Source of the DNA: Pseudoalteromonas translucida KMM 520
Lineage (GTDB): Bacteria; Pseudomonadota; Gammaproteobacteria; Enterobacterales; Alteromonadaceae
Assembly (NCBI RefSeq): GCF_001465295.1
Contig: NZ_CP011034.1
Span: 1,920,001 to 1,952,000 of the forward strand
Length of the DNA stretch: 32,000 nt
Direction of reading: 5' to 3'
The position numbers and the translations under genes are program-made. Position 1 is the stretch's first letter. Every line of letters begins with the position of its first letter. Under the pieces are notes generated by a model. It made no database searches and was not told the DNA's origin. It worked only from the letters and a program-made list of their open reading frames with translations. This document shows positions 525 through 25,835 of the stretch, piece by piece.

Positions 525-992
525 ATGGACTACCGGGTAGAACAGGTCGATTGGCACAGCCAAAAAGCGCTACTGCAGCAAATAAGAGAGCGTGTATTTG
601 TTTATGAGTTACATATTCCTAAACATATTGAATTTGACAACCTAGACCCACTTGCCCAACATATTCTTGTCACCAGTATTACCAACGATACACAGTCTCC
701 TGTAGCCACAGGCAGGCTGTGTAGCGATGGCCTTATAGGCCGTATAGCTGTATTACCCGCTCACCGCAATCGCAATGTTTACAAATCTCTACTCAATTTT
801 ATTGTTGCACTTGCTGCAGAGCAAAATATTGAAGTACTGAGTACTAACTGCATTTTAGAAGAAGTGGAATTATTTAAACAAAATGGCTTTAGCCAACAAG
901 GCAATGTCTTCATGGAGGCCGGCATTGCAAAGCTACGAATGCAGTGCCCTGTTACCAGCTTTGAAACTCGTCCATTTACGTTAACGCATTAA
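525..992 (+). CDS. GNAT-family N-acetyltransferase (small, 155 aa)
   Basis: The ORF starts 10 nt after the roxA stop. Its size and the central segment GRIAVLPAHRNRNVYKSLLNFIV, followed by ..LFKQNGF, fit the GNAT acetyl-CoA-binding core. The motif is weak, so the call is generic. Confidence 0.6.
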   Translation: MDYRVEQVDWHSQKALLQQIRERVFVYELHIPKHIEFDNLDPLAQHILVTSITNDTQSPVATGRLCSDGLIGRIAVLPAHRNRNVYKSLLNFIVALAAEQNIEVLSTNCILEEVELFKQNGFSQQGNVFMEAGIAKLRMQCPVTSFETRPFTLTH

Positions 993-1029
993 AAAGCGAG
1001 CTACAATAAACAAAGTAGCTCGCTTTTTT
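991..1029. terminator. bidirectional rho-independent terminator between convergent genes
   Basis: A perfect 10-bp stem agcgagctac (995-1004) / gtagctcgct (1015-1024) has a 10-nt loop. It is flanked by an A-run upstream and ttttt (1025-1029) downstream, between the convergent stops at 992 and 1055. Confidence 0.8.
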
Positions 1030-1054
1030 AATTTGTTATACAAACATATTAAAC

Positions 1055-20096: not shown

Positions 20097-20531
20097 CTAG
20101 TTTTTACCCGATTCTAATTTCTGCTTTAATAATTCAATAAGTTGAATGTTAAGCCCGGTAATTTCAGCTTCTAGCACCTTCACTTTTGCCTGCGACTCTT
20201 CATCATCTTTACTGCGTAACAATGCAGTTTCTTGCAGTAGTTTTTCAAGCTTTTCTTGTATTTCAGCAATCAGTTCATCAAGGGGATCACCTTCAGATTA
20301 TGATGCTTGATCTACATCTTCATTACCTAATAACTTGCGAAATGCCGCTTGATTTTTATCTTCCAGACTTTTTTCCGCCCCCTCTTCAGATATATCTACT
20401 TGAACACCTTGAGCCACTCCCTTTTGCACTGTCTGTTTTTCAGAAACGTCATCAGCCACCACCTTTAAAATTTGTTTTTTCGGGTGAGCTTCTAAAGATT
20501 TAGACGTTATGTTAACTGACATTTTATCCAT
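20097..20531 (-). pseudogene. FlxA-like coiled-coil protein gene interrupted by one in-frame TAA (77 + 66 codons)
   Basis: The listed 77-aa ORF ends at a TAA (comp. 20300-20298). The same frame stays open for 66 more codons (SEGDPLDELIAEIQEKLEKLLQETALLRSKDDEESQAKVKVLEAEITGLNIQLIELLKQKLESGKN) to a TAG at comp. 20099-20097. The heptad-like pattern with an acidic centre resembles FlxA-family proteins; the family call is tentative. Confidence 0.4.
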
Positions 20532-20624
20532 TGTAACACCCCTTATTTAATCAATTATTGGTGGCTATTGCTCAACTATAAATATAATGTTTTGCCAGCT
20601 GTTATTTGTTCTTGTATATAAAAT

Positions 20625-20879
20625 TTGTGCCTGTCCTATTTTACTTCTAAATTTTTAAGGCAAACATTTGTGCGTTATTCATTTTGGGAAAAAACATATT
20701 ATCGGCAGCAAGAAGCCAAAGGAAAACCCCATAATACCATCACCAGATCATTAGCATCTAAGTGGATACGAATACTATTTAGGTGCTGGAAAACATATAC
20801 GCCCTACGATGAATCAACTTACTTAACTGCATTGAAAAGTAAGAGATCACCGCTGTTAAAATTTACGGTGGGAAGTTAG
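20625..20879 (+). mobile_element. 3' remnant of an IS110-family (IS1111-like) transposase gene; the N-terminal catalytic domain is missing
   Basis: The translation ..KFLRQTFVRYSFWEKTYYRQQEAKGKPHNTITRSLASKWIRILFRCWKTYTPYDESTYLTALKSKRSPLLKF matches the conserved IS110-family C-terminus (..YY..QR.KGKSH..A.RALAFKWIRI.FRCW....PYDE..YL.AL...GSPLL). Only about 75 of the roughly 340-400 expected codons are present. The frame is closed by a TAA at 20619-20621. Confidence 0.75.
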
Positions 20880-20883
20880 CTTT

Positions 20884-20924
20884 AGTGCTTGCTGTCCACC
20901 TCAGGGCGTGTTGTTAGACTTACA
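20884..20924 (-). other. truncated integron attC site of cassette 2 (R'' core plus L''-side arm only)
   Basis: The minus strand reads TGTAAGTCTAAC-AACACGCCCTGAGGTGGACAGCAAGCAC. GTCTAAC fits RYYYAAC and starts 5 nt after the ORF stop. The 12 nt TGTAAGTCTAAC are the exact reverse complement of the first 12 nt of the cassette (comp. 22330-22319). The partner arm is absent and the IS110 remnant abuts here. Confidence 0.7.
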
Positions 20925-22256
20925 TTACTCATCACCTGAGTCATCATCTTTATTTTTATCTTTATAAGCCTTGAAAATCTTGAGTAACTTCTCATTATCC
21001 GTAAGGGGATCTCGATAAGTATTTAGGATTTTTTGAAGTTTCTCATTACCCGCAAATGGGTCTTGATAAGAATTTAGGATTTTTTGTAGCTTTTCATTAC
21101 CCGCAAATGAGTCTTGATAAGAGTTAAGGATTCTTTGTAGCTTTTCATTACCCGCAAATGAGTCTTGATAAGAGTTAAGGATTCTTTGAAGTTTCTCATT
21201 ACCCGCAAATGAGTCTTGATAAGAGTTAAGGATTCTCTGAAGTTTCTCATTACCCGCAAATGAGTCTTGATAAGAGTTAAGGACTTTTTGTAATGGCTCA
21301 TTACCAATTGGCTGAAGATGCTGAACCTCAGCATCTTCGATAGAGCTTTCACTTACATCAATAGATAAATTTGATTTACCATCTTCTAGAAACATTGATG
21401 TACTGTACATATGAAAGTTTTTGATATTTGACTCTCGATATATTTCAGATTGTAGCTCAGCAAGGGGACCAATAGTTTTTTTACCATTTAAATTTATTTT
21501 GTACCACCAGTCTTCTTTCGCGTCGTCAGTAATGAAAATTACATTCTCAATATTATCATTCTGTGACTTCTTAATTAATTGTTTCCAAAGAATAAGATCT
21601 CCATATTGTCTCTCATAATTTAAGCCATCATTATAAAAGTGTGTTTCATCATCACCATTACCTTTTCCTGCATCCTTAAAACCCGGAGGGATTTTATTTT
21701 TAAATCGATCTTTTCCTTCAATGTAAAGTTCGTCTAACCACTTTTGGTCTTCTGGTTTTTCACCGACTTTCTCATGGAAAAAATCATTGAGTTTATCTCT
21801 TATTTCATCATGCGATCTTACACATGGTTGTTCATTATCCCAGTGCTGAACAGACTTCTTGTAATTTGAAATACTCTTGTTAATTTCTTTTTCAAGTTTC
21901 TCTGTATTTTCAAACAATTTAGGGAAACGGCGTTTAAGTGCTAGTTTTTCGAAATCCCCTTTAAAAACTTTTTGAATTTTACCTAAATTACTTTCAATAT
22001 CATTAAAAACTACTTTTTCATTTTTAATTATGCTTAATCTACGTCTTTGATACTCCAAGCCTACATGGTACGGGAGCCATAACTTATCGTTAACAGCATC
22101 AAGGATACTAAAGAAGTCATCCCTAGTTTGTTTAGCATATCCATATAAATTAAGTAGAACGTTGGTATCAAAAACAAAAATAGTTTTTTCATCCTTCCAT
22201 AACTCTTCCAATACAGCACTATCAATATTGTAAAACCCTTTAAATATATCTTTCAT
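20925..22256 (-). CDS. PIN-like domain nuclease (DUF4935/PIN-like type) with a C-terminal 7 x 17-aa tandem-repeat tail
   Basis: N-terminal PIN acidic residues lie in characteristic contexts: FVFDTNVLLNLY (D30), YHVGLEYQRR (E68), YGDLILW (D220), FITDDAKEDWW (D244/D245). Residues about 319-436 are repeats of NEKLQ(R/K)ILNSYQDSFAG, followed by an acidic end DDDSGDE. Confidence 0.75.
   Translation of the reverse strand: MKDIFKGFYNIDSAVLEELWKDEKTIFVFDTNVLLNLYGYAKQTRDDFFSILDAVNDKLWLPYHVGLEYQRRRLSIIKNEKVVFNDIESNLGKIQKVFKGDFEKLALKRRFPKLFENTEKLEKEINKSISNYKKSVQHWDNEQPCVRSHDEIRDKLNDFFHEKVGEKPEDQKWLDELYIEGKDRFKNKIPPGFKDAGKGNGDDETHFYNDGLNYERQYGDLILWKQLIKKSQNDNIENVIFITDDAKEDWWYKINLNGKKTIGPLAELQSEIYRESNIKNFHMYSTSMFLEDGKSNLSIDVSESSIEDAEVQHLQPIGNEPLQKVLNSYQDSFAGNEKLQRILNSYQDSFAGNEKLQRILNSYQDSFAGNEKLQRILNSYQDSFAGNEKLQKILNSYQDPFAGNEKLQKILNTYRDPLTDNEKLLKIFKAYKDKNKDDDSGDE
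20938..21310 (-). repeat. 51-bp in-frame tandem repeat array (about 7 units) inside the PIN-like gene
   Basis: Units start at 20989, 21040, 21091, 21142, 21193 and 21244 with an exact 51-bp period. Degenerate units lie at both ends. Adjacent central units (21091-21243) differ by about 2 bases each in my by-eye alignment. Confidence 0.9.
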
Positions 22257-22318
22257 TCATTGTCCTAAATTAGTTCTGCTTTTAAATAAATATGCTGAGG
22301 GATGTTGTTAATTGTGTC

Positions 22319-22424
22319 TGTAAGTCTAACGTCTGTGTTCAGCGGCATTTGAGGCGACACCTGTTTTTGTGGCAGCAAAATTGGGTGGTCCCTCAAATGT
22401 CCGCTGCAACGACTTGTTATAAGC
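22319..22424 (-). other. complete integron attC recombination site (about 101 bp core, R''-L''...L'-R')
   Basis: The minus strand reads GCTTATAAC-AAGTCGTT-GCAGCGGACATTTGAGGG-(35 nt)-CCTCAAATGCCGCTGAAC-ACAGAC-GTTAGAC. The L''/L' arms pair except for one unpaired A in L'', an extrahelical base. R' GTTAGAC fits GTTRRRY. R'' starts 4 nt after the upstream ORF stop. Confidence 0.8.
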
Positions 22425-23691
22425 AACCTTACCGCGGCAAGTGGAATGCTTGGATAGCAATATGAACTTCTCGATTTGAATCATCATTAATGTGAAACCG
22501 ATACTGATACCAACCTTCTTCCACCTCTTTGACAAATCCCAAATGATTCGGATGTTCTGAAGTAACTTCACGAATAGTTTCGAGGACGGGGCTGAACTCC
22601 TTGTTGGATATGAACATAACCACTGCTGCCTTTGAATCCCTCCAAGTGAGATACGAAAGCAACTGAGTTATTGTTTCGAGATAGCCTTTCTTCCCATGCC
22701 AATATTTCAATTCGGCCACGAACACATTTGAGCCCTCGTGACGAAGCAAAATATCTGTTTTACCTTTCTTATTAAATGTTTCGCCCGTTGCAGAACCCTC
22801 AAAATTTGGCTCTAAAATCAGAAGCATATGATCACGAAGATGTTCCTCACCTTTTCCAGCGTATGTACTCGGCAACCGCTCAAATTGCTTGCCAACATCG
22901 TGGATAATTTTGAGAATCTGATGGTAAATTGCGTTATCAAGAGTTGGTTCCGGCTTATAGCCTTTGGCAGTAACTTCGGGCTTGGGCTTGCTTGGTATGG
23001 CTGGGGTTCGTTTAGCTGGAACTGAGAACGTAGAAGGTGTGCTGTGAGCTTTTCGAACAGGAATACCCAAAGCCGAAATCACGTCATGTTTCTTTAACAA
23101 CTGTTCTTTTCGTGCATCGAATGCTTTGCTCAACAGTGACTCCAACGACCCGTTGAATCTTACTAGATCGTTCGTAAGATTCTGGTTTTGCGACGTTAAC
23201 TGCGCCACAACATTATCAGCCTCGCGCTTTATCGCTTCCGCTTCTTGGTTAAAGTTAATAATTTCAAACTGAATTTCCCGACCATCAGTCTGAATACGCG
23301 GAGATGACATGCTGTATGTACTTGCACGAACCTTGAGCAACTGAGCATCCCCAGAAAACGGCAGGTGGAAGGTGTACACATCTTTTGGATAGGATTTTCC
23401 ATTGTCCACCCAGTATGAACTGGGATGTCGTTTGGCAGGAATCATCCGTTCTTCAACAGAAACCGATAGTTGCTCTTGATGAATTTCCAATGGCTGCATT
23501 GAAAACTCCGAACCCAAATGATCAAGGTATTCCGTCTTGTTTACATTCAGAATGTAATCGTCAGTCTGGCCCTTTATAGCTTGAAGGGCTTGTTCCTTCC
23601 TGCCTTCGATTACGCCAAATCCATCTAACTCATAAAAGGCTACAAAATAATTATGCCCGTATCGACTCATCTCAGCTCCAGTAGCTTATAA
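22330..23691 (-). mobile_element. integron gene cassette 1 (413-aa nuclease-like protein), complete, 1362 bp
   Basis: It starts TTATAAGC (from G|TTATAAGC, comp. 23692-23684) and its own attC carries the exact complement GCTTATAAC (comp. 22424-22416). It holds a single ORF with an SD-like GGAG 6 nt before the ATG. It ends at the G of R' GTTAGAC. Confidence 0.75.
22429..23670 (-). CDS. hypothetical two-domain protein with a C-terminal PD-(D/E)xK-like nuclease motif
   Basis: The 413-aa ORF has an N-terminal domain of about 200 aa ending in a coiled-coil-like stretch (aa 140-195). A Pro/Lys/Ser-rich linker spans aa 205-243. The C-terminal domain has the ordered motif GEEHLRD (E275/E276) .. GKTDILL (D306) .. 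FVAELKYW (E320-x-K322) .. ITQLLSY (Q336). This is the E...D...ExK...Q order of restriction-endonuclease-fold enzymes. Confidence 0.6.
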   Translation of the reverse strand: MSRYGHNYFVAFYELDGFGVIEGRKEQALQAIKGQTDDYILNVNKTEYLDHLGSEFSMQPLEIHQEQLSVSVEERMIPAKRHPSSYWVDNGKSYPKDVYTFHLPFSGDAQLLKVRASTYSMSSPRIQTDGREIQFEIINFNQEAEAIKREADNVVAQLTSQNQNLTNDLVRFNGSLESLLSKAFDARKEQLLKKHDVISALGIPVRKAHSTPSTFSVPAKRTPAIPSKPKPEVTAKGYKPEPTLDNAIYHQILKIIHDVGKQFERLPSTYAGKGEEHLRDHMLLILEPNFEGSATGETFNKKGKTDILLRHEGSNVFVAELKYWHGKKGYLETITQLLSYLTWRDSKAAVVMFISNKEFSPVLETIREVTSEHPNHLGFVKEVEEGWYQYRFHINDDSNREVHIAIQAFHLPR

Positions 23692-23692
23692 C
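23684..23692 (-). other. cassette-boundary core site GTTATAAGC (R'-type) at the upstream end of cassette 1
   Basis: It is a perfect reverse complement of the R'' core at 22416-22424. It lies 13 nt upstream of the ATG. Immediately upstream is only a 6-bp-stem hairpin (AACGAG..CTCGTT), not a full attC. Confidence 0.55.
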
Positions 23693-23735
23693 GAGCCTGT
23701 AGATTAACTCGTTTTTTGTTTTTATTCATAAACAA

Positions 23736-23764
23736 ACCATAGCTGAGTTCCTATTTTGGTTCAA
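23736..23764 (-). promoter_or_regulatory. candidate sigma70 promoter reading into cassette 1
   Basis: The minus strand reads TTGAAC (comp. 23764-23759), a 17-nt spacer, then TATGGT (comp. 23741-23736). Each hexamer matches consensus at 4 of 6 positions. It lies about 65 nt upstream of the ATG. This is sequence-only and weak. Confidence 0.25.
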
Positions 23765-24071
23765 TCGATTACTTATTTATGCAGAATATAAAGTGGGAGT
23801 TTGATGTTGTTTTAATTGGTATTCTGGAAGGAATTACTGGTGTTTAAGCGGCTTTATTGAGGTTAAAAGAGCTTCCCCCTCTTAATGCATCGTGTTTTGC
23901 AGCTTTTCTATATTATGAACAAGGCAATACAGTTGCCATTACGCATTCACTTGACCCCGTAACAGATAAAAAGTCGTAACAAGGACAGGCGCATATTTTT
24001 TGGCAAAGAACTGTAACGCGCTAAAGCACGCCCTACATATTAGCTGAACCTTTTTACTTTTAACCTATAAT

Positions 24072-24108
24072 AAAAAAGCCGCTGTTTATTACAAACAGCG
24101 GCTTTCTT
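24072..24108. terminator. rho-independent terminator downstream of serS (bidirectional shape)
   Basis: A 10-bp stem agccgctgtt (24077-24086) / aacagcggct (24094-24103) is flanked by an A-run on one side and a T-rich run on the other. It lies about 45 nt after the serS stop. Confidence 0.8.

Positions 24109-24149: not shown

Positions 24150-25835
<1,686 letters not shown>

What the first reader, a model, noticed from the sequence alone, without database searches (positions are those of the whole stretch)
20884..23692. Integrase-less integron cassette array (CALIN-like) inserted next to serS
Two consecutive minus-strand ORFs each carry the bracket signature of integron gene cassettes.
- Cassette 1 begins GTTATAAGC (comp. 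23692-23684), and its 3' end carries the exact complement GCTTATAAC (comp. 22424-22416).
- Cassette 2 begins GTTAGACTTACA (comp. 22330-22319) and ends with the exact complement TGTAAGTCTAAC (comp. 20924-20913).
- GTTAGAC fits the R' consensus GTTRRRY, and GTCTAAC fits R'' RYYYAAC.
- Each R'' starts 4-5 nt after a stop codon.
- A 101-bp imperfect palindrome with an unpaired base separates the ORFs.
- The two attC sequences are unrelated to each other.
- By eye the two cassettes differ in base composition, with cassette 2 visibly more AT-rich.
- No tyrosine recombinase or attI is recognisable in the 380 bp between cassette 1 and the serS terminator, so this is an orphan attC cluster in a housekeeping neighbourhood.
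Basis: partly seen in the sequence, partly recalled or inferred. Interest (0 to 1): 0.8.

Follow-up and report, generated by a model that had tools for sequence, protein, structure and literature searches.

The report
Orphan integron cassettes with IS scar
Next to the serS gene of Pseudoalteromonas translucida sit two mobile integron gene cassettes, both carrying candidate anti-phage genes, that have no integrase of their own, and the end of the array has been cut off by an insertion sequence that specifically attacks integron recombination sites; this is a well-documented example of a known kind of element, not a new one.

Summary
Window 23691-20913 (minus strand) holds two integron gene cassettes with no integrase or attI nearby. 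Cassette 1 (PADLOC candidate PDC-S54, 413 aa) ends in a complete 99-nt attC (22422-22324). That site has canonical geometry and scores 36.3 bits (E 4e-6) with a covariance model built from independent attC sites. The same gene plus attC occurs in other arrays, once beside a truncated intI. Cassette 2 (PIN_8 protein, 443 aa) keeps only the R'' box of its attC. The sequence after it (20912-20666) is not an attC. It is the terminal ~250 bp of an attC-targeting IS110-family insertion sequence, which occurs intact in at least 120 marine metagenome contigs, always inside cassette arrays and antisense to them. Related strains carry different cassettes in this slot, and a related species keeps an intI remnant at the same place. 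By IntegronFinder's default rule (at least 2 attC) the locus is a single-attC element (SALIN), not a CALIN. It is a new member of a known kind: a decayed chromosomal integron carrying defence-type cargo and pruned by an IS.

The parts
24150..25454 (-). serS (seryl-tRNA synthetase, 434 aa), the conserved left neighbour of the array
   Evidence: Pfam Seryl_tRNA_N + tRNA-synt_2b. The 434-aa reading from ATG 25454 matches the gene call in sister strain L001.
24075..24105 (.). serS intrinsic terminator hairpin. Homology to other Pseudoalteromonas species stops here.
   Evidence: 13-bp stem plus T-run. Inverted repeat I3. Synteny to L012-L028 ends at 24162-24069.
23693..24074 (-). 382-bp spacer with no recognisable intI or attI. 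Its last base (G at 23692) is the left recombination junction G|TT.
   Evidence: tblastn with two IntI N-terminal fragments and blastn-short against the L014 intI/attI region found nothing. L098 carries a different cassette joined at exactly this G|TT.
22330..23691 (-). Cassette 1, complete: TTATAAGC...ORF1...attC...G
   Evidence: Homology to the same cassette in unrelated genomes starts at (G)TTATAAGC. It is 99.6% identical to sister strains while the flanks are 93-97% identical. The same ORF plus attC occurs in L225/L226 arrays.
22429..23670 (-). ORF1, 413 aa, PADLOC defence candidate PDC-S54. No Pfam, NCBIfam, PDB sequence or fold match.
   Evidence: PDC-S54 E 3e-152 over the full length. 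No hits. More than 3,500 homologs across phyla.
22324..22422 (-). Complete attC of cassette 1: R'' TTATAAC, UCS AAGTC, L'' GTT[G]CAGCGG[A]CATTTGAGG, variable loop, L' CCTCAAATGCCGCTGAAC, UCS ACAGAC, R' G|TTAGAC. The bottom (recombinogenic) strand is the window + strand.
   Evidence: Fold. Structural scan score 17.5, above all 30 shuffles. Model R1 gives 36.3 bits, E 4.4e-6, model positions 1-101. Geometry matches Nivina 2016. A homologous attC with a compensatory change occurs in L225/L226.
20913..22329 (-). Cassette 2, truncated at its 3' end: TTAGACTTACA...ORF2...TGTAAGTCTAAC (only the R'' box of its attC survives)
   Evidence: The bracket is conserved with ORF2 homologs in L092 and in the V. 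anguillarum superintegron L095, with a compensatory change. The segment 22415-20913 is absent from sister strains.
20925..22256 (-). ORF2, 443 aa, PIN_8 (PIN-like) domain protein with a C-terminal array of 17-aa repeats. 100% identical to PTRA_a2117 of P. translucida KMM 520.
   Evidence: Pfam PF18476 E 1.7e-67. Identity. Tandem repeat 51 bp x 6.2 at 20989-21305.
20666..20912 (+). Terminal ~250-bp remnant ('footprint') of an attC-targeting IS110-family insertion sequence. It includes the last ~70 codons of its DEDD transposase (stop at 20877-20879) and is antisense to the cassettes.
   Evidence: 93.7% identity over 252 bp to the end of an intact copy in L108. Intact copies encode PF01548+PF02371 transposases. 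Removing the IS reconstitutes attC sites in 10 of 16 copies. No attC-model hit here.
20097..20649 (-). Conserved right-hand backbone resumes here (fspA-like gene 20097-20531, carrying an in-frame stop in this strain)
   Evidence: Homology to all sister strains resumes at 20649. NCBIfam FspA weak hit for the L001 ortholog. In-frame TAA.

Best explanation
This is the remnant of a sedentary chromosomal integron array next to serS in Pseudoalteromonas translucida KMM 520. It has two gene cassettes and has lost intI and attI. Cassette 1 (PDC-S54 family gene plus a complete 99-nt attC) is a standard mobile cassette delivered by integron-integrase recombination at G|TT. Cassette 2 (PIN_8 gene) was once equally complete. 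An IS110-family insertion sequence that specifically targets attC sites then inserted between the R'' box (+AA) and the L'' arm of its attC, antisense to the cassettes. Later, most of the IS and everything distal to it was deleted, leaving a ~250-bp footprint. Shown here: the attC structure and its model score; the cassette boundaries; the presence of both cassettes in other integron arrays; strain-level turnover; and the identity and target specificity of the IS. Inferred: (i) the array descends from a resident integron, as in P. sp. 3D05, which keeps an intI stub at the same position; (ii) cassette exchange now depends on an integrase supplied in trans, or on homologous exchange between strains; (iii) both cargo genes act in anti-phage defence and are expressed from their own promoters or by read-through, since no Pc is present; (iv) the sister-strain structure (ORF1 joined directly to an IS footprint) arose when the same IS family hit cassette 1's attC.
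For: attC. The central element has a strong imperfect hairpin. On the + strand, which carries the AAC on the opposite arm, extrahelical bases C and T are separated by a 6-bp stem, and the spacers are 6 and 5 nt. This matches the canonical description. My structural scan scores it 17.5, above all 30 shuffles, while the same scanner scores ten V. anguillarum superintegron sites at 12-17.3. Covariance model R1 was built from 33 attC sites outside the window lineage; 14 of its 18 pairs show compensatory changes. R1 hits 22422-22324 end to end at 36.3 bits, E 4.4e-6. In 1.28 Mb of control loci, every hit of 30 bits or more lies in a same-strand cassette cluster or at a cassette boundary.

Cassette mobility. 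Homology around ORF1 in Thalassobium, Halomonas and Shewanella starts at (G)TTATAAGC. In Halomonas, ORF1 is the first cassette beside a truncated integron integrase (TIGR02249 positions 2-107, E 3e-29). L225/L226 carry ORF1 plus a homologous attC with a compensatory A>G/T>C change, in two different upstream contexts. ORF2 homologs lie in the V. anguillarum superintegron and in L092, with the same bracket.

Turnover. The same backbone holds ORF1+ORF2, ORF1 alone, orf100, a RelA/SpoT gene, or other genes, depending on the strain. The ORF1 cassette is 99.6% identical between strains whose flanks are 93-97% identical.

Locus history. P. sp. 3D05 has a 71-aa intI remnant directly after the serS terminator, followed by cassettes. 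attC arrays also follow serS in L013, L015 and L037.

IS. See, with the published insertion geometry of attC-targeting IS.
Against: No trace of intI or attI exists in the window's 382-bp spacer. That spacer shares no sequence with the L014 intI/attI region, so descent from a resident integron is inferred from position only. Only one complete attC is present, so a standard IntegronFinder run would not call a CALIN. The first extrahelical base is C on the bottom strand rather than the usual G. I could not run the IntegronFinder attC model itself; R1 is a surrogate with roughly calibrated E-values. I could not search the rest of the genome for intI. Defence activity of either gene is untested, and ORF1's fold matches nothing solved. 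The two IS-footprint haplotypes join the backbone at the same base, which my scenario explains only by an untested recombination step.
Confidence: 0.85

Rival explanations
1. The cassettes never belonged to a resident integron here. An integrase acting in trans inserted them into a genomic site ('attG' route), producing a small orphan cluster, and the serS-proximal site is simply a hotspot for such insertion.
For: There is no intI or attI remnant in the window. Loot et al. report that most CALINs lack nearby intI pseudogenes and that small CALINs/SALINs can arise by cassette insertion into genomes. The ORF1 cassette is much younger (99.6% identity) than its flanks. Exchange occurs exactly at one G|TT in a spacer that does not look like attI.
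Against: A related species has an intI stub at the equivalent position right after the serS terminator, followed by cassettes in the same orientation. Several other species and genera have arrays after serS. The array end carries an IS footprint typical of array termini. Homologs of that intI stub are all fragments, which fits genus-wide decay of one old integron.
Confidence: 0.13
2. One reading: a true CALIN with two complete, unrelated attC sites, the second lying downstream of ORF2 (about 20919-20788).
For: GTCTAAC fits RYYYAAC. A weak outer stem ACGCCCT/AGGGCGT and a GTTTTCC about 130 nt downstream give spacings of 5 and 6 nt.
Against: The fold is not better than shuffles (z -1.4 to -1.8). 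The structural score of 10.2 is within the chance range. There is no model hit at E<=10. The sequence is 93.7% identical to the end of an IS and encodes the C-terminus of its transposase on the other strand.
Confidence: 0.01
3. The 1,503-bp difference from the sister strains (junctions at the two R'' boxes) arose by integrase recombination of attC top strands, or by a deletion between the 6-bp repeat TAACAA, and not by an IS hitting cassette 1's attC.
For: The junctions fall at ...ATAAC|AA and ...CTAAC|AA. Top-strand recombination at R'' is documented at low frequency.
Against: What follows R'' in the sister strains is an IS end of a different variant, about 70% identical to the window's footprint. 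A simple deletion from a window-like ancestor does not predict this. The IS family inserts precisely at R''+AA.
Confidence: 0.05
4. This is not an integron at all. It is a generic variable defence island downstream of serS, in which the palindrome is a terminator and the short inverted repeats are chance.
For: The slot is variable, and some variants (L099, L101) have no attC-like element. Short inverted repeats are common by chance. A genuine terminator elsewhere in the window scores 21.6 bits with the attC model.
Against: The attC model score of 36.3 bits is full-length with extrahelical bases. The attC co-travels with ORF1 in other arrays. Brackets are conserved and co-vary. A Halomonas homolog sits beside intI. 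An attC-specific IS chose this site.
Confidence: 0.01

Closest known systems
CALIN / SALIN (clusters of attC sites, or single attC sites, lacking an integron integrase; Cury 2016, Neron 2022 PMC9024848, Loot et al. bioRxiv 10.1101/2022.09.11.507474)
   Same: Gene cassettes with attC, no intI or attI nearby, in a chromosomal housekeeping neighbourhood. Thought to be degraded integrons or trans-inserted cassettes.
   Different: Only one attC is complete, so the default CALIN rule (at least 2 attC) is not met. The second cassette is recognisable only from its R' / R'' bracket and from homologs elsewhere.
Sedentary chromosomal integrons as stores of anti-phage defence cassettes (bioRxiv 10.1101/2024.07.02.601686) and the Vibrio superintegron
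   Same: Promoterless-looking single-gene cassettes encoding defence-type proteins. An ORF2 homolog is a cassette in the V. anguillarum superintegron.
   Different: There is no integrase, there are only two cassettes, and the attC is not of a homogeneous host-specific family. Defence activity of PDC-S54 and of this PIN_8 protein is only predicted.
IS1111-attC group insertion sequences (ISPa21, ISPst6, ISKpn4; Tetu & Holmes 2008, Post & Hall 2009, as cited in PMC3001079 and PMC11187229)
   Same: A DEDD (IS110/IS1111 superfamily) transposase. Site-specific insertion near the 5' end of attC sites. Orientation antisense to the cassettes. From my memory of the Tetu & Holmes abstract (not readable here), degenerate footprints are found at array termini.
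   Different: The long non-coding region lies upstream of the transposase gene, with the stop codon 44 nt from the IS end. Siddiquee 2024 describe this as the IS110-type layout, not the IS1111 one. The transposase is ~420 aa. The closest annotated relatives are ISEsa2-family elements at ~48% identity. Phylogenetic placement relative to the IS1111-attC group was not tested.
Group IIC-attC introns
   Same: Another mobile element class that inserts into attC sites in antisense orientation near their 5' end (PMC3001079).
   Different: No intron RNA domains or reverse transcriptase are present here. The element encodes a DEDD transposase.

Membership tests
Integron gene cassette (cassette 1, 23691-22330) | attC site: R''(..AAC)-UCS-L''...L'-UCS-R'(GTT..) imperfect hairpin, 57-141 nt, with extrahelical bases on the bottom-strand arm opposite the AAC and 6 bp between the first and last | tested here: met
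   The site is 99 nt with UCS of 5 and 6 nt. Extrahelical bases C and T on the + strand are separated by CCGCTG. The first extrahelical base is C rather than the usual G.
Integron gene cassette (cassette 1, 23691-22330) | Recognised by an attC covariance model | tested here: met
   Surrogate model R1, built from 33 independent sites, gives 36.3 bits, E 4.4e-6, full length. IntegronFinder's own model was not available.
Integron gene cassette (cassette 1, 23691-22330) | Boundaries at G|TT, with the start of the cassette complementary to the R'' of its own attC | tested here: met
   GTTATAAGC / GCTTATAAC. Homology to the cassette in other genomes begins at (G)TTATAAGC.
Integron gene cassette (cassette 1, 23691-22330) | Same gene plus attC found in other cassette arrays or next to an integron integrase | tested here: met
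   L225/L226 arrays carry a homologous attC. In Halomonas L009 it is the first cassette beside a truncated intI.
Integron gene cassette (cassette 1, 23691-22330) | Recombined by an integron integrase | not testable with these tools
   Needs a recombination assay.
Integron gene cassette (cassette 2, 22329-20913) | Complete attC at the 3' end | tested here: not met
   Only the R'' box TGTAAGTCTAAC survives and the rest is replaced by an IS remnant. Cassette status rests on the bracket and on homologs in the V. anguillarum superintegron and L092.
Complete integron | intI (integron-type tyrosine recombinase) adjacent to the array | tested here: not met
   No similarity anywhere in the 32-kb window. 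The rest of the genome was not searchable.
Complete integron | attI site and Pc promoter upstream of the first cassette | tested here: inconclusive
   No similarity to the L014 attI region. Only two weak 9/12 sigma-70-like matches lie on the cassette strand in the spacer, and the region as a whole has no more matches than shuffles. attI sites are not conserved between integron classes.
CALIN (IntegronFinder 2 default) | At least 2 attC sites clustered | tested here: not met
   One hit above noise in the region. Definition.
CALIN (IntegronFinder 2 default) | No integron integrase nearby | tested here: met
SALIN (single attC lacking integrase) | A CDS with one attC and no other att site or intI nearby | tested here: met
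   Biologically there is a second, attC-less cassette next to it.
IS1111-attC group | DEDD transposase of the IS110/IS1111 superfamily | tested here: met
   PF01548 + PF02371 in intact copies. The window keeps only the C-terminal ~70 codons.
IS1111-attC group | Site-specific insertion near the 5' end of attC, antisense to the cassettes | tested here: met
   More than 100 different left flanks end in YTAAC. Flanks reconstitute attC in 10 of 16 copies against controls of 0-6.9. By my cross-reading of the strands listed, the attC hits lie on the same strand as the IS in every contig I compared.
IS1111-attC group | IS1111-type layout: long non-coding (seekRNA) region downstream of tnp | tested here: not met
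   The stop codon is 44 nt from the IS end and ~240 nt of non-coding sequence lies upstream of tnp. Layout rule ('usually').
IS1111-attC group | Transposase falls in the monophyletic IS1111-attC clade | not tested
   Reference sequences (ISPa21, ISPst6, ISKpn4) were not at hand. The nearest annotated relatives are ISEsa2-family at ~48%.
PADLOC PDC-S54 (candidate single-gene defence system) | Full-length match to the PDC-S54 profile | tested here: met
   E 3.3e-152, residues 10-412 against profile positions 6-407 of 410.
PADLOC PDC-S54 (candidate single-gene defence system) | Protects against phage | not testable with these tools
   It is a candidate system only. No fold or domain match was found.

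The most novel reading that the evidence does not exclude
The insertion sequence whose footprint ends this array may be a previously undescribed, very abundant marine lineage of attC-targeting elements with the IS110-type layout (guide-RNA region upstream of the transposase). That would make it an origin of attC targeting independent of the known IS1111-attC group. By repeatedly hitting the last intact attC and recombining with older footprints, it would prune and fossilise chromosomal integron arrays in Pseudoalteromonas and relatives. This would explain why the intI of this genus survives only as fragments and why different strains show different cassettes fused to the same scar.
Probability: 0.3. 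Interest if true: 0.55.

Novelty: new member of a known kind. Interest (0 to 1): 0.35.

Why it matters
The locus is a clean natural example of how chromosomal integrons decay. The integrase is gone, one attC is still intact and presumably still usable in trans, and the distal attC has been destroyed by an attC-specific IS. It adds two defence-type genes to the list of integron-borne cargo: PDC-S54, a widespread candidate with no known fold, and a PIN_8 protein with a repeat tail. It also shows strain-level cassette turnover at a fixed chromosomal slot. For annotation practice, it shows that a cassette can be missed by attC-based tools when an IS has removed its attC, and that the R'/R'' bracket together with homologs in other arrays can rescue it. 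The IS family itself, with at least 120 copies in marine metagenomes, is a ready-made data set for studying RNA-guided targeting of a structured recombination site.

Tried and rejected
- Rfam gathering-threshold scan of the window: no hits, and no attC family was reported.
- tRNA scan: none, so this is not a tRNA-linked island.
- Reversed orientation (cassettes reading on the + strand, ORFs antisense): I considered this because the strain indel is bounded by AAC/GTT at the R'' boxes. I rejected it because the extrahelical bases make the + strand the bottom strand, and because ORF1 plus attC co-travel in the sense orientation.
- Element X as a host-specific attC family, prompted by its many different upstream partners: rejected once the transposase ORF and the far IS end were found.
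- Top-strand integrase recombination or microhomology deletion as the cause of the R''-R'' junctions: demoted (see rivals).
- First attempt to reconstitute IS targets failed because I anchored the join wrongly. It worked once the shared AA at both junctions was taken into account.
- Exact 20-mer of the attC arm in metagenome contigs: no match.
- Exact-protein look-ups given as window DNA references failed, although the identical proteins exist in the collection (against 13, 14, 44).
- 30-nt imperfect inverted repeat flanking the region (20608-20637 / 23982-24011): treated as chance.
- Second model hit at 979-1041: an intrinsic terminator.
- ORF1 structure prediction (pLDDT 69.5, N-domain ~90) and PDB fold search: no match better than E 0.14. 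PDB sequence searches for both ORFs gave nothing meaningful.
- Search for full-length integrases related to the L014 stub: only 43-105-aa fragments were found.
- The Tetu & Holmes 2008 paper was not available to read.

Full report
**What is there.** The window comes from Pseudoalteromonas translucida KMM 520. ORF2 is 100% identical to PTRA_a2117, and ORF1 is 100% identical to a hypothetical protein of P. sp. HL-AS2.

- two minus-strand ORFs (22429-23670, 413 aa; 20925-22256, 443 aa);
- the 9-bp bracket GTTATAAGC/GCTTATAAC and the 12-bp bracket GTTAGACTTACA/TGTAAGTCTAAC;
- a ~100-bp imperfect palindrome between the ORFs;
- a drop in GC from 0.438 (cassette 1) to 0.322 (cassette 2).

Short inverted repeats of this length are expected by chance in 4.4 kb (194 pairs). 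The case therefore rests on their placement and on comparative evidence, not on their existence.

**The central element is a bona fide attC.**
- It folds far better than shuffles (z -5.3 to -5.8).
- Taking the ORF strand as the top strand, it reads R'' TTATAAC, spacer AAGTC, L'' GTT[G]CAGCGG[A]CATTTGAGG, loop, L' CCTCAAATGCCGCTGAAC, spacer ACAGAC, R' GTTAGAC.
- On the window's + strand the two unpaired bases (C and T) lie on the arm opposite the 5'-AAC-3', are separated by a 6-bp stem, and the spacers are 6 and 5 nt. This is the geometry Nivina et al. 2016 describe for the recombinogenic bottom strand. The only deviation is a C where G is usual.
- A structural scanner I wrote scores it 17.5, the best in the window and above all 30 shuffles (maximum 15.9). 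The same scanner recovers ten 126-bp repeats of the V. anguillarum superintegron at 12-17.3.

**Covariance-model test.** Their RNAalifold consensus has 18 pairs, 14 with compensatory changes. I built covariance model R1 from them and searched the window with filters off.
- The top hit is 22422-22324 on the minus strand: 36.3 bits, E 4.4e-6, covering the whole model.
- In 1.28 Mb of control loci, every hit of 30 bits or more lies in a same-strand cassette cluster or at a cassette boundary.
- The only other window hit below E 0.01 (979-1041, 21.6 bits) is an intrinsic terminator between convergent genes.

**Both ORFs are mobile cassettes.** The ORF1 family (PADLOC candidate PDC-S54, E 3e-152) has more than 3,500 members, with 80-87% identity across unrelated phyla.
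- In Thalassobium, Halomonas and Shewanella, homology to the window begins exactly at (G)TTATAAGC. In the first two it continues to GCTTATAAC.
- In Halomonas it is the first cassette next to a divergent, truncated integron integrase (TIGR02249 positions 2-107, E 3e-29). Further bracketed cassettes follow.
- In two metagenome contigs with different upstream neighbours, the ORF1 homolog (75.7% nt identity) is followed by an attC clearly homologous to the window's. It includes a compensatory A>G/T>C change in the stem and scores 37.3 bits.

So ORF1 plus this attC is a standard cassette. ORF2 (PIN_8, E 1.7e-67) has homologs in the V. anguillarum superintegron and in an array on contig L092. Each is bracketed by GTTAGGCTTACA ... 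TAAGCCTAAC. The window's version differs by G>A and C>T at paired positions.

**The sequence after cassette 2 is an IS scar, not an attC.**
- It folds no better than shuffles, scores at chance level in my scanner (10.2), and gets no model hit even at E<=10.
- Its first 19 nt occur in at least 120 metagenome contigs. There they are preceded by more than 100 different sequences, nearly all ending in YTAAC, and they are not followed by this locus's backbone in the 76 contigs long enough to check.
- On the opposite strand, a 420-433-aa ORF ends 44 nt from the element's outer end. It is an IS110-family DEDD transposase (PF01548 + PF02371).
- Window 20917-20666 is 93.7% identical to the last 252 bp of an intact copy. 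The window's 84-aa + strand ORF is the transposase C-terminus.
- Intact copies are 1,541-1,549 bp and end in ...AACTATAAGC.
- Removing them and keeping one of the two flanking AA dinucleotides reconstitutes ~100-nt attC sites in 10 of 16 cases (scores 12-17, against 0-6.9 for shifted controls).
- The IS-bearing contigs contain 132 attC hits in 415 kb. By my cross-reading of the strands listed, these are on the same strand as the IS in every contig I compared.

Insertion near the 5' end of attC and antisense to the cassettes is what is published for the IS1111-attC group. Unlike IS1111 elements, however, this IS has its long non-coding region upstream of the transposase gene. Its nearest annotated relatives are ISEsa2-family elements at ~48% identity. 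I did not test its phylogenetic position.

**Comparative picture of the locus.** Strains with the same backbone (serS ... fspA-like gene ... GSDH) carry different cargo in this slot: ORF1+ORF2 (window); ORF1 only (HL-AS2 and another strain); a 100-aa ORF; a RelA/SpoT-domain gene; or unrelated ORFs with no attC.
- Each cassette has its own complementary bracket: GTTATAC/GTATAAC and GTTAGTTTTC/GAAAACTAAC as well as the window's two.
- Where an IS footprint is present, it abuts the cassette's R''.
- The left junction in three variants is the same G|TT at 23692.
- The ORF1 cassette is 99.6% identical between strains whose flanks are 93-97% identical, so it was exchanged recently.
- The sister strains, where ORF1's R'' is joined directly to an IS end, are best explained by the same IS family hitting cassette 1's attC. 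The footprint there is a different IS variant, about 70% identical to the window's.

In more distant Pseudoalteromonas species, synteny ends at the serS terminator. P. sp. 3D05 has a 71-aa intI stub right after that terminator, followed by cassettes with attC sites. Arrays also follow serS in P. gelatinilytica, a Pseudoalteromonas MAG and a Colwelliaceae genome. All retrievable homologs of the intI stub are fragments. Together this suggests an old serS-linked chromosomal integron that has decayed across the genus. For the window itself this is inferred from position only, because its 382-bp spacer has no intI or attI similarity.

**Classification.** The features of a gene cassette are met for cassette 1. 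For cassette 2 they are met except for the attC, which is destroyed. A complete integron is excluded because there is no intI in the window. IntegronFinder 2 reports a CALIN only with at least 2 attC sites, and a single attC without an integrase is a SALIN. With one detectable attC this locus is formally a SALIN, and biologically a two-cassette remnant array. Loot et al. raise a rival origin, insertion of cassettes into a genomic site by an integrase acting in trans. I cannot exclude it and give it about 0.13.

**Function.**
- *Shown:* sequence families only. ORF1 has a confidently predicted N-terminal domain but no fold match and no Pfam, NCBIfam or PDB sequence match. By eye, its C-terminal GKTDILL...AELKYW resembles a D...ExK nuclease motif; this is unverified.
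- *Inferred:* both genes are anti-phage defence cargo, in line with recent reports that chromosomal integron cassettes are rich in defence systems. Neighbours of ORF1 homologs elsewhere (an OLD/AriA-like ATPase and an AAA_13 protein) point the same way. No convincing promoter was found, and consensus matches are no more frequent than in shuffles.

**Unexplained.** Both IS-footprint haplotypes, and the footprint-less variants, join the backbone at the same base (20649/50). Repeated IS insertion followed by homologous recombination with an older terminal footprint would produce this, but I did not test it. The nature of the left junction site in the spacer is also open.

**Verdict.** This is a new member of a known kind and of moderate interest. 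The IS family is the most promising lead for something new.

Noticed in passing
L105-L224 (metagenome contigs); window 20666-20912: An abundant marine IS110-family element: ~1,545 bp, 420-aa DEDD transposase, ~240-nt non-coding region upstream of tnp, ends AACACGSCCTGAGGTGGAC... and ...GGAACGGnnAACTATAAGC, with AA at both junctions. It inserts between R'' and L'' of ~100-nt attC sites, always antisense to the cassettes. By eye there may be subterminal inverted repeats (GTGGACRGC / CCGTTCCAC) about 12 nt from each end.
   Followed up: partly
L014 9556-9771 and 10232-12396; L013 14477-16612; L015 12803-16581; L037 9520-12879: attC arrays lie downstream of serS in several other Pseudoalteromonas species and in a Colwelliaceae genome. 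P. sp. 3D05 keeps a 71-aa integron-integrase stub right after the serS terminator. All database homologs of that stub are 43-105-aa fragments.
   Followed up: partly
window 20649-20650 and the equivalent positions in L001, L098, L099, L100: Two different IS-footprint haplotypes (~250 bp and ~163 bp, ~70% identical to each other), and also the variants without a footprint, all join the conserved backbone at the same base. Independent deletions would not be expected to do this.
   Followed up: no
window 20097-20531 (minus strand): The fspA-like 144-aa gene that is intact in the sister strains has an in-frame TAA at 20298-20300 in this strain, so it is probably a pseudogene here.
   Followed up: no
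window 20989-21305: The 3' part of ORF2 is a 51-bp tandem repeat (6.2 copies, 90% matches) encoding 17-residue units (LNSYQDSFAGNEKLQRI). Homologs differ mainly in this C-terminal part (72-77% coverage in many hits).
   Followed up: partly
window 979-1041: A perfect hairpin with a T-run lies between convergent DUF4826 and GNAT genes. It is flanked by GTATAAC...GTTAACG and scores 21.6 bits (E 0.008) with the attC model. It has no extrahelical bases and no matching bracket upstream, so it is a terminator and a useful marker of the model's false-positive level.
   Followed up: yes
window 20608-20637 and 23982-24011: A 30-nt, 77%-complementary inverted repeat brackets the whole variable region. 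One arm is partly deleted in L001. It is only slightly better than other chance repeats in the region.
   Followed up: no
L100 11980-12050; L099 11970-12030: In strains with a different spacer allele, the first cassette is preceded by a perfect 11-bp hairpin (GACATTTGTCG...CGACAAATGTC) and by ...ACAAAGTT|GTTAG. This may be an attI-like junction; I did not test it.
   Followed up: no
L015 9476-10642: A VarG-family subclass B1-like metallo-beta-lactamase (NF033574, 788 bits) with a divergent LysR regulator sits between serS and the cassette array in a Pseudoalteromonas MAG.
   Followed up: no
L007 8155-9985; L225 301-2985: ORF1 homologs elsewhere are preceded by other defence-type cassettes, each followed by its own attC hit: an OLD/AriA/GajA-like ATPase-TOPRIM protein and an 864-aa AAA_13 protein.
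   Followed up: no
Exact-sequence look-ups of ORF1 and ORF2 given as window DNA references returned 'not on record'. Yet the identical ORF1 protein, once returned by the homolog search, was found on 11 contigs, and the homolog search also lists a 100%-identical ORF2 protein. This is a tool quirk worth knowing.
   Followed up: partly
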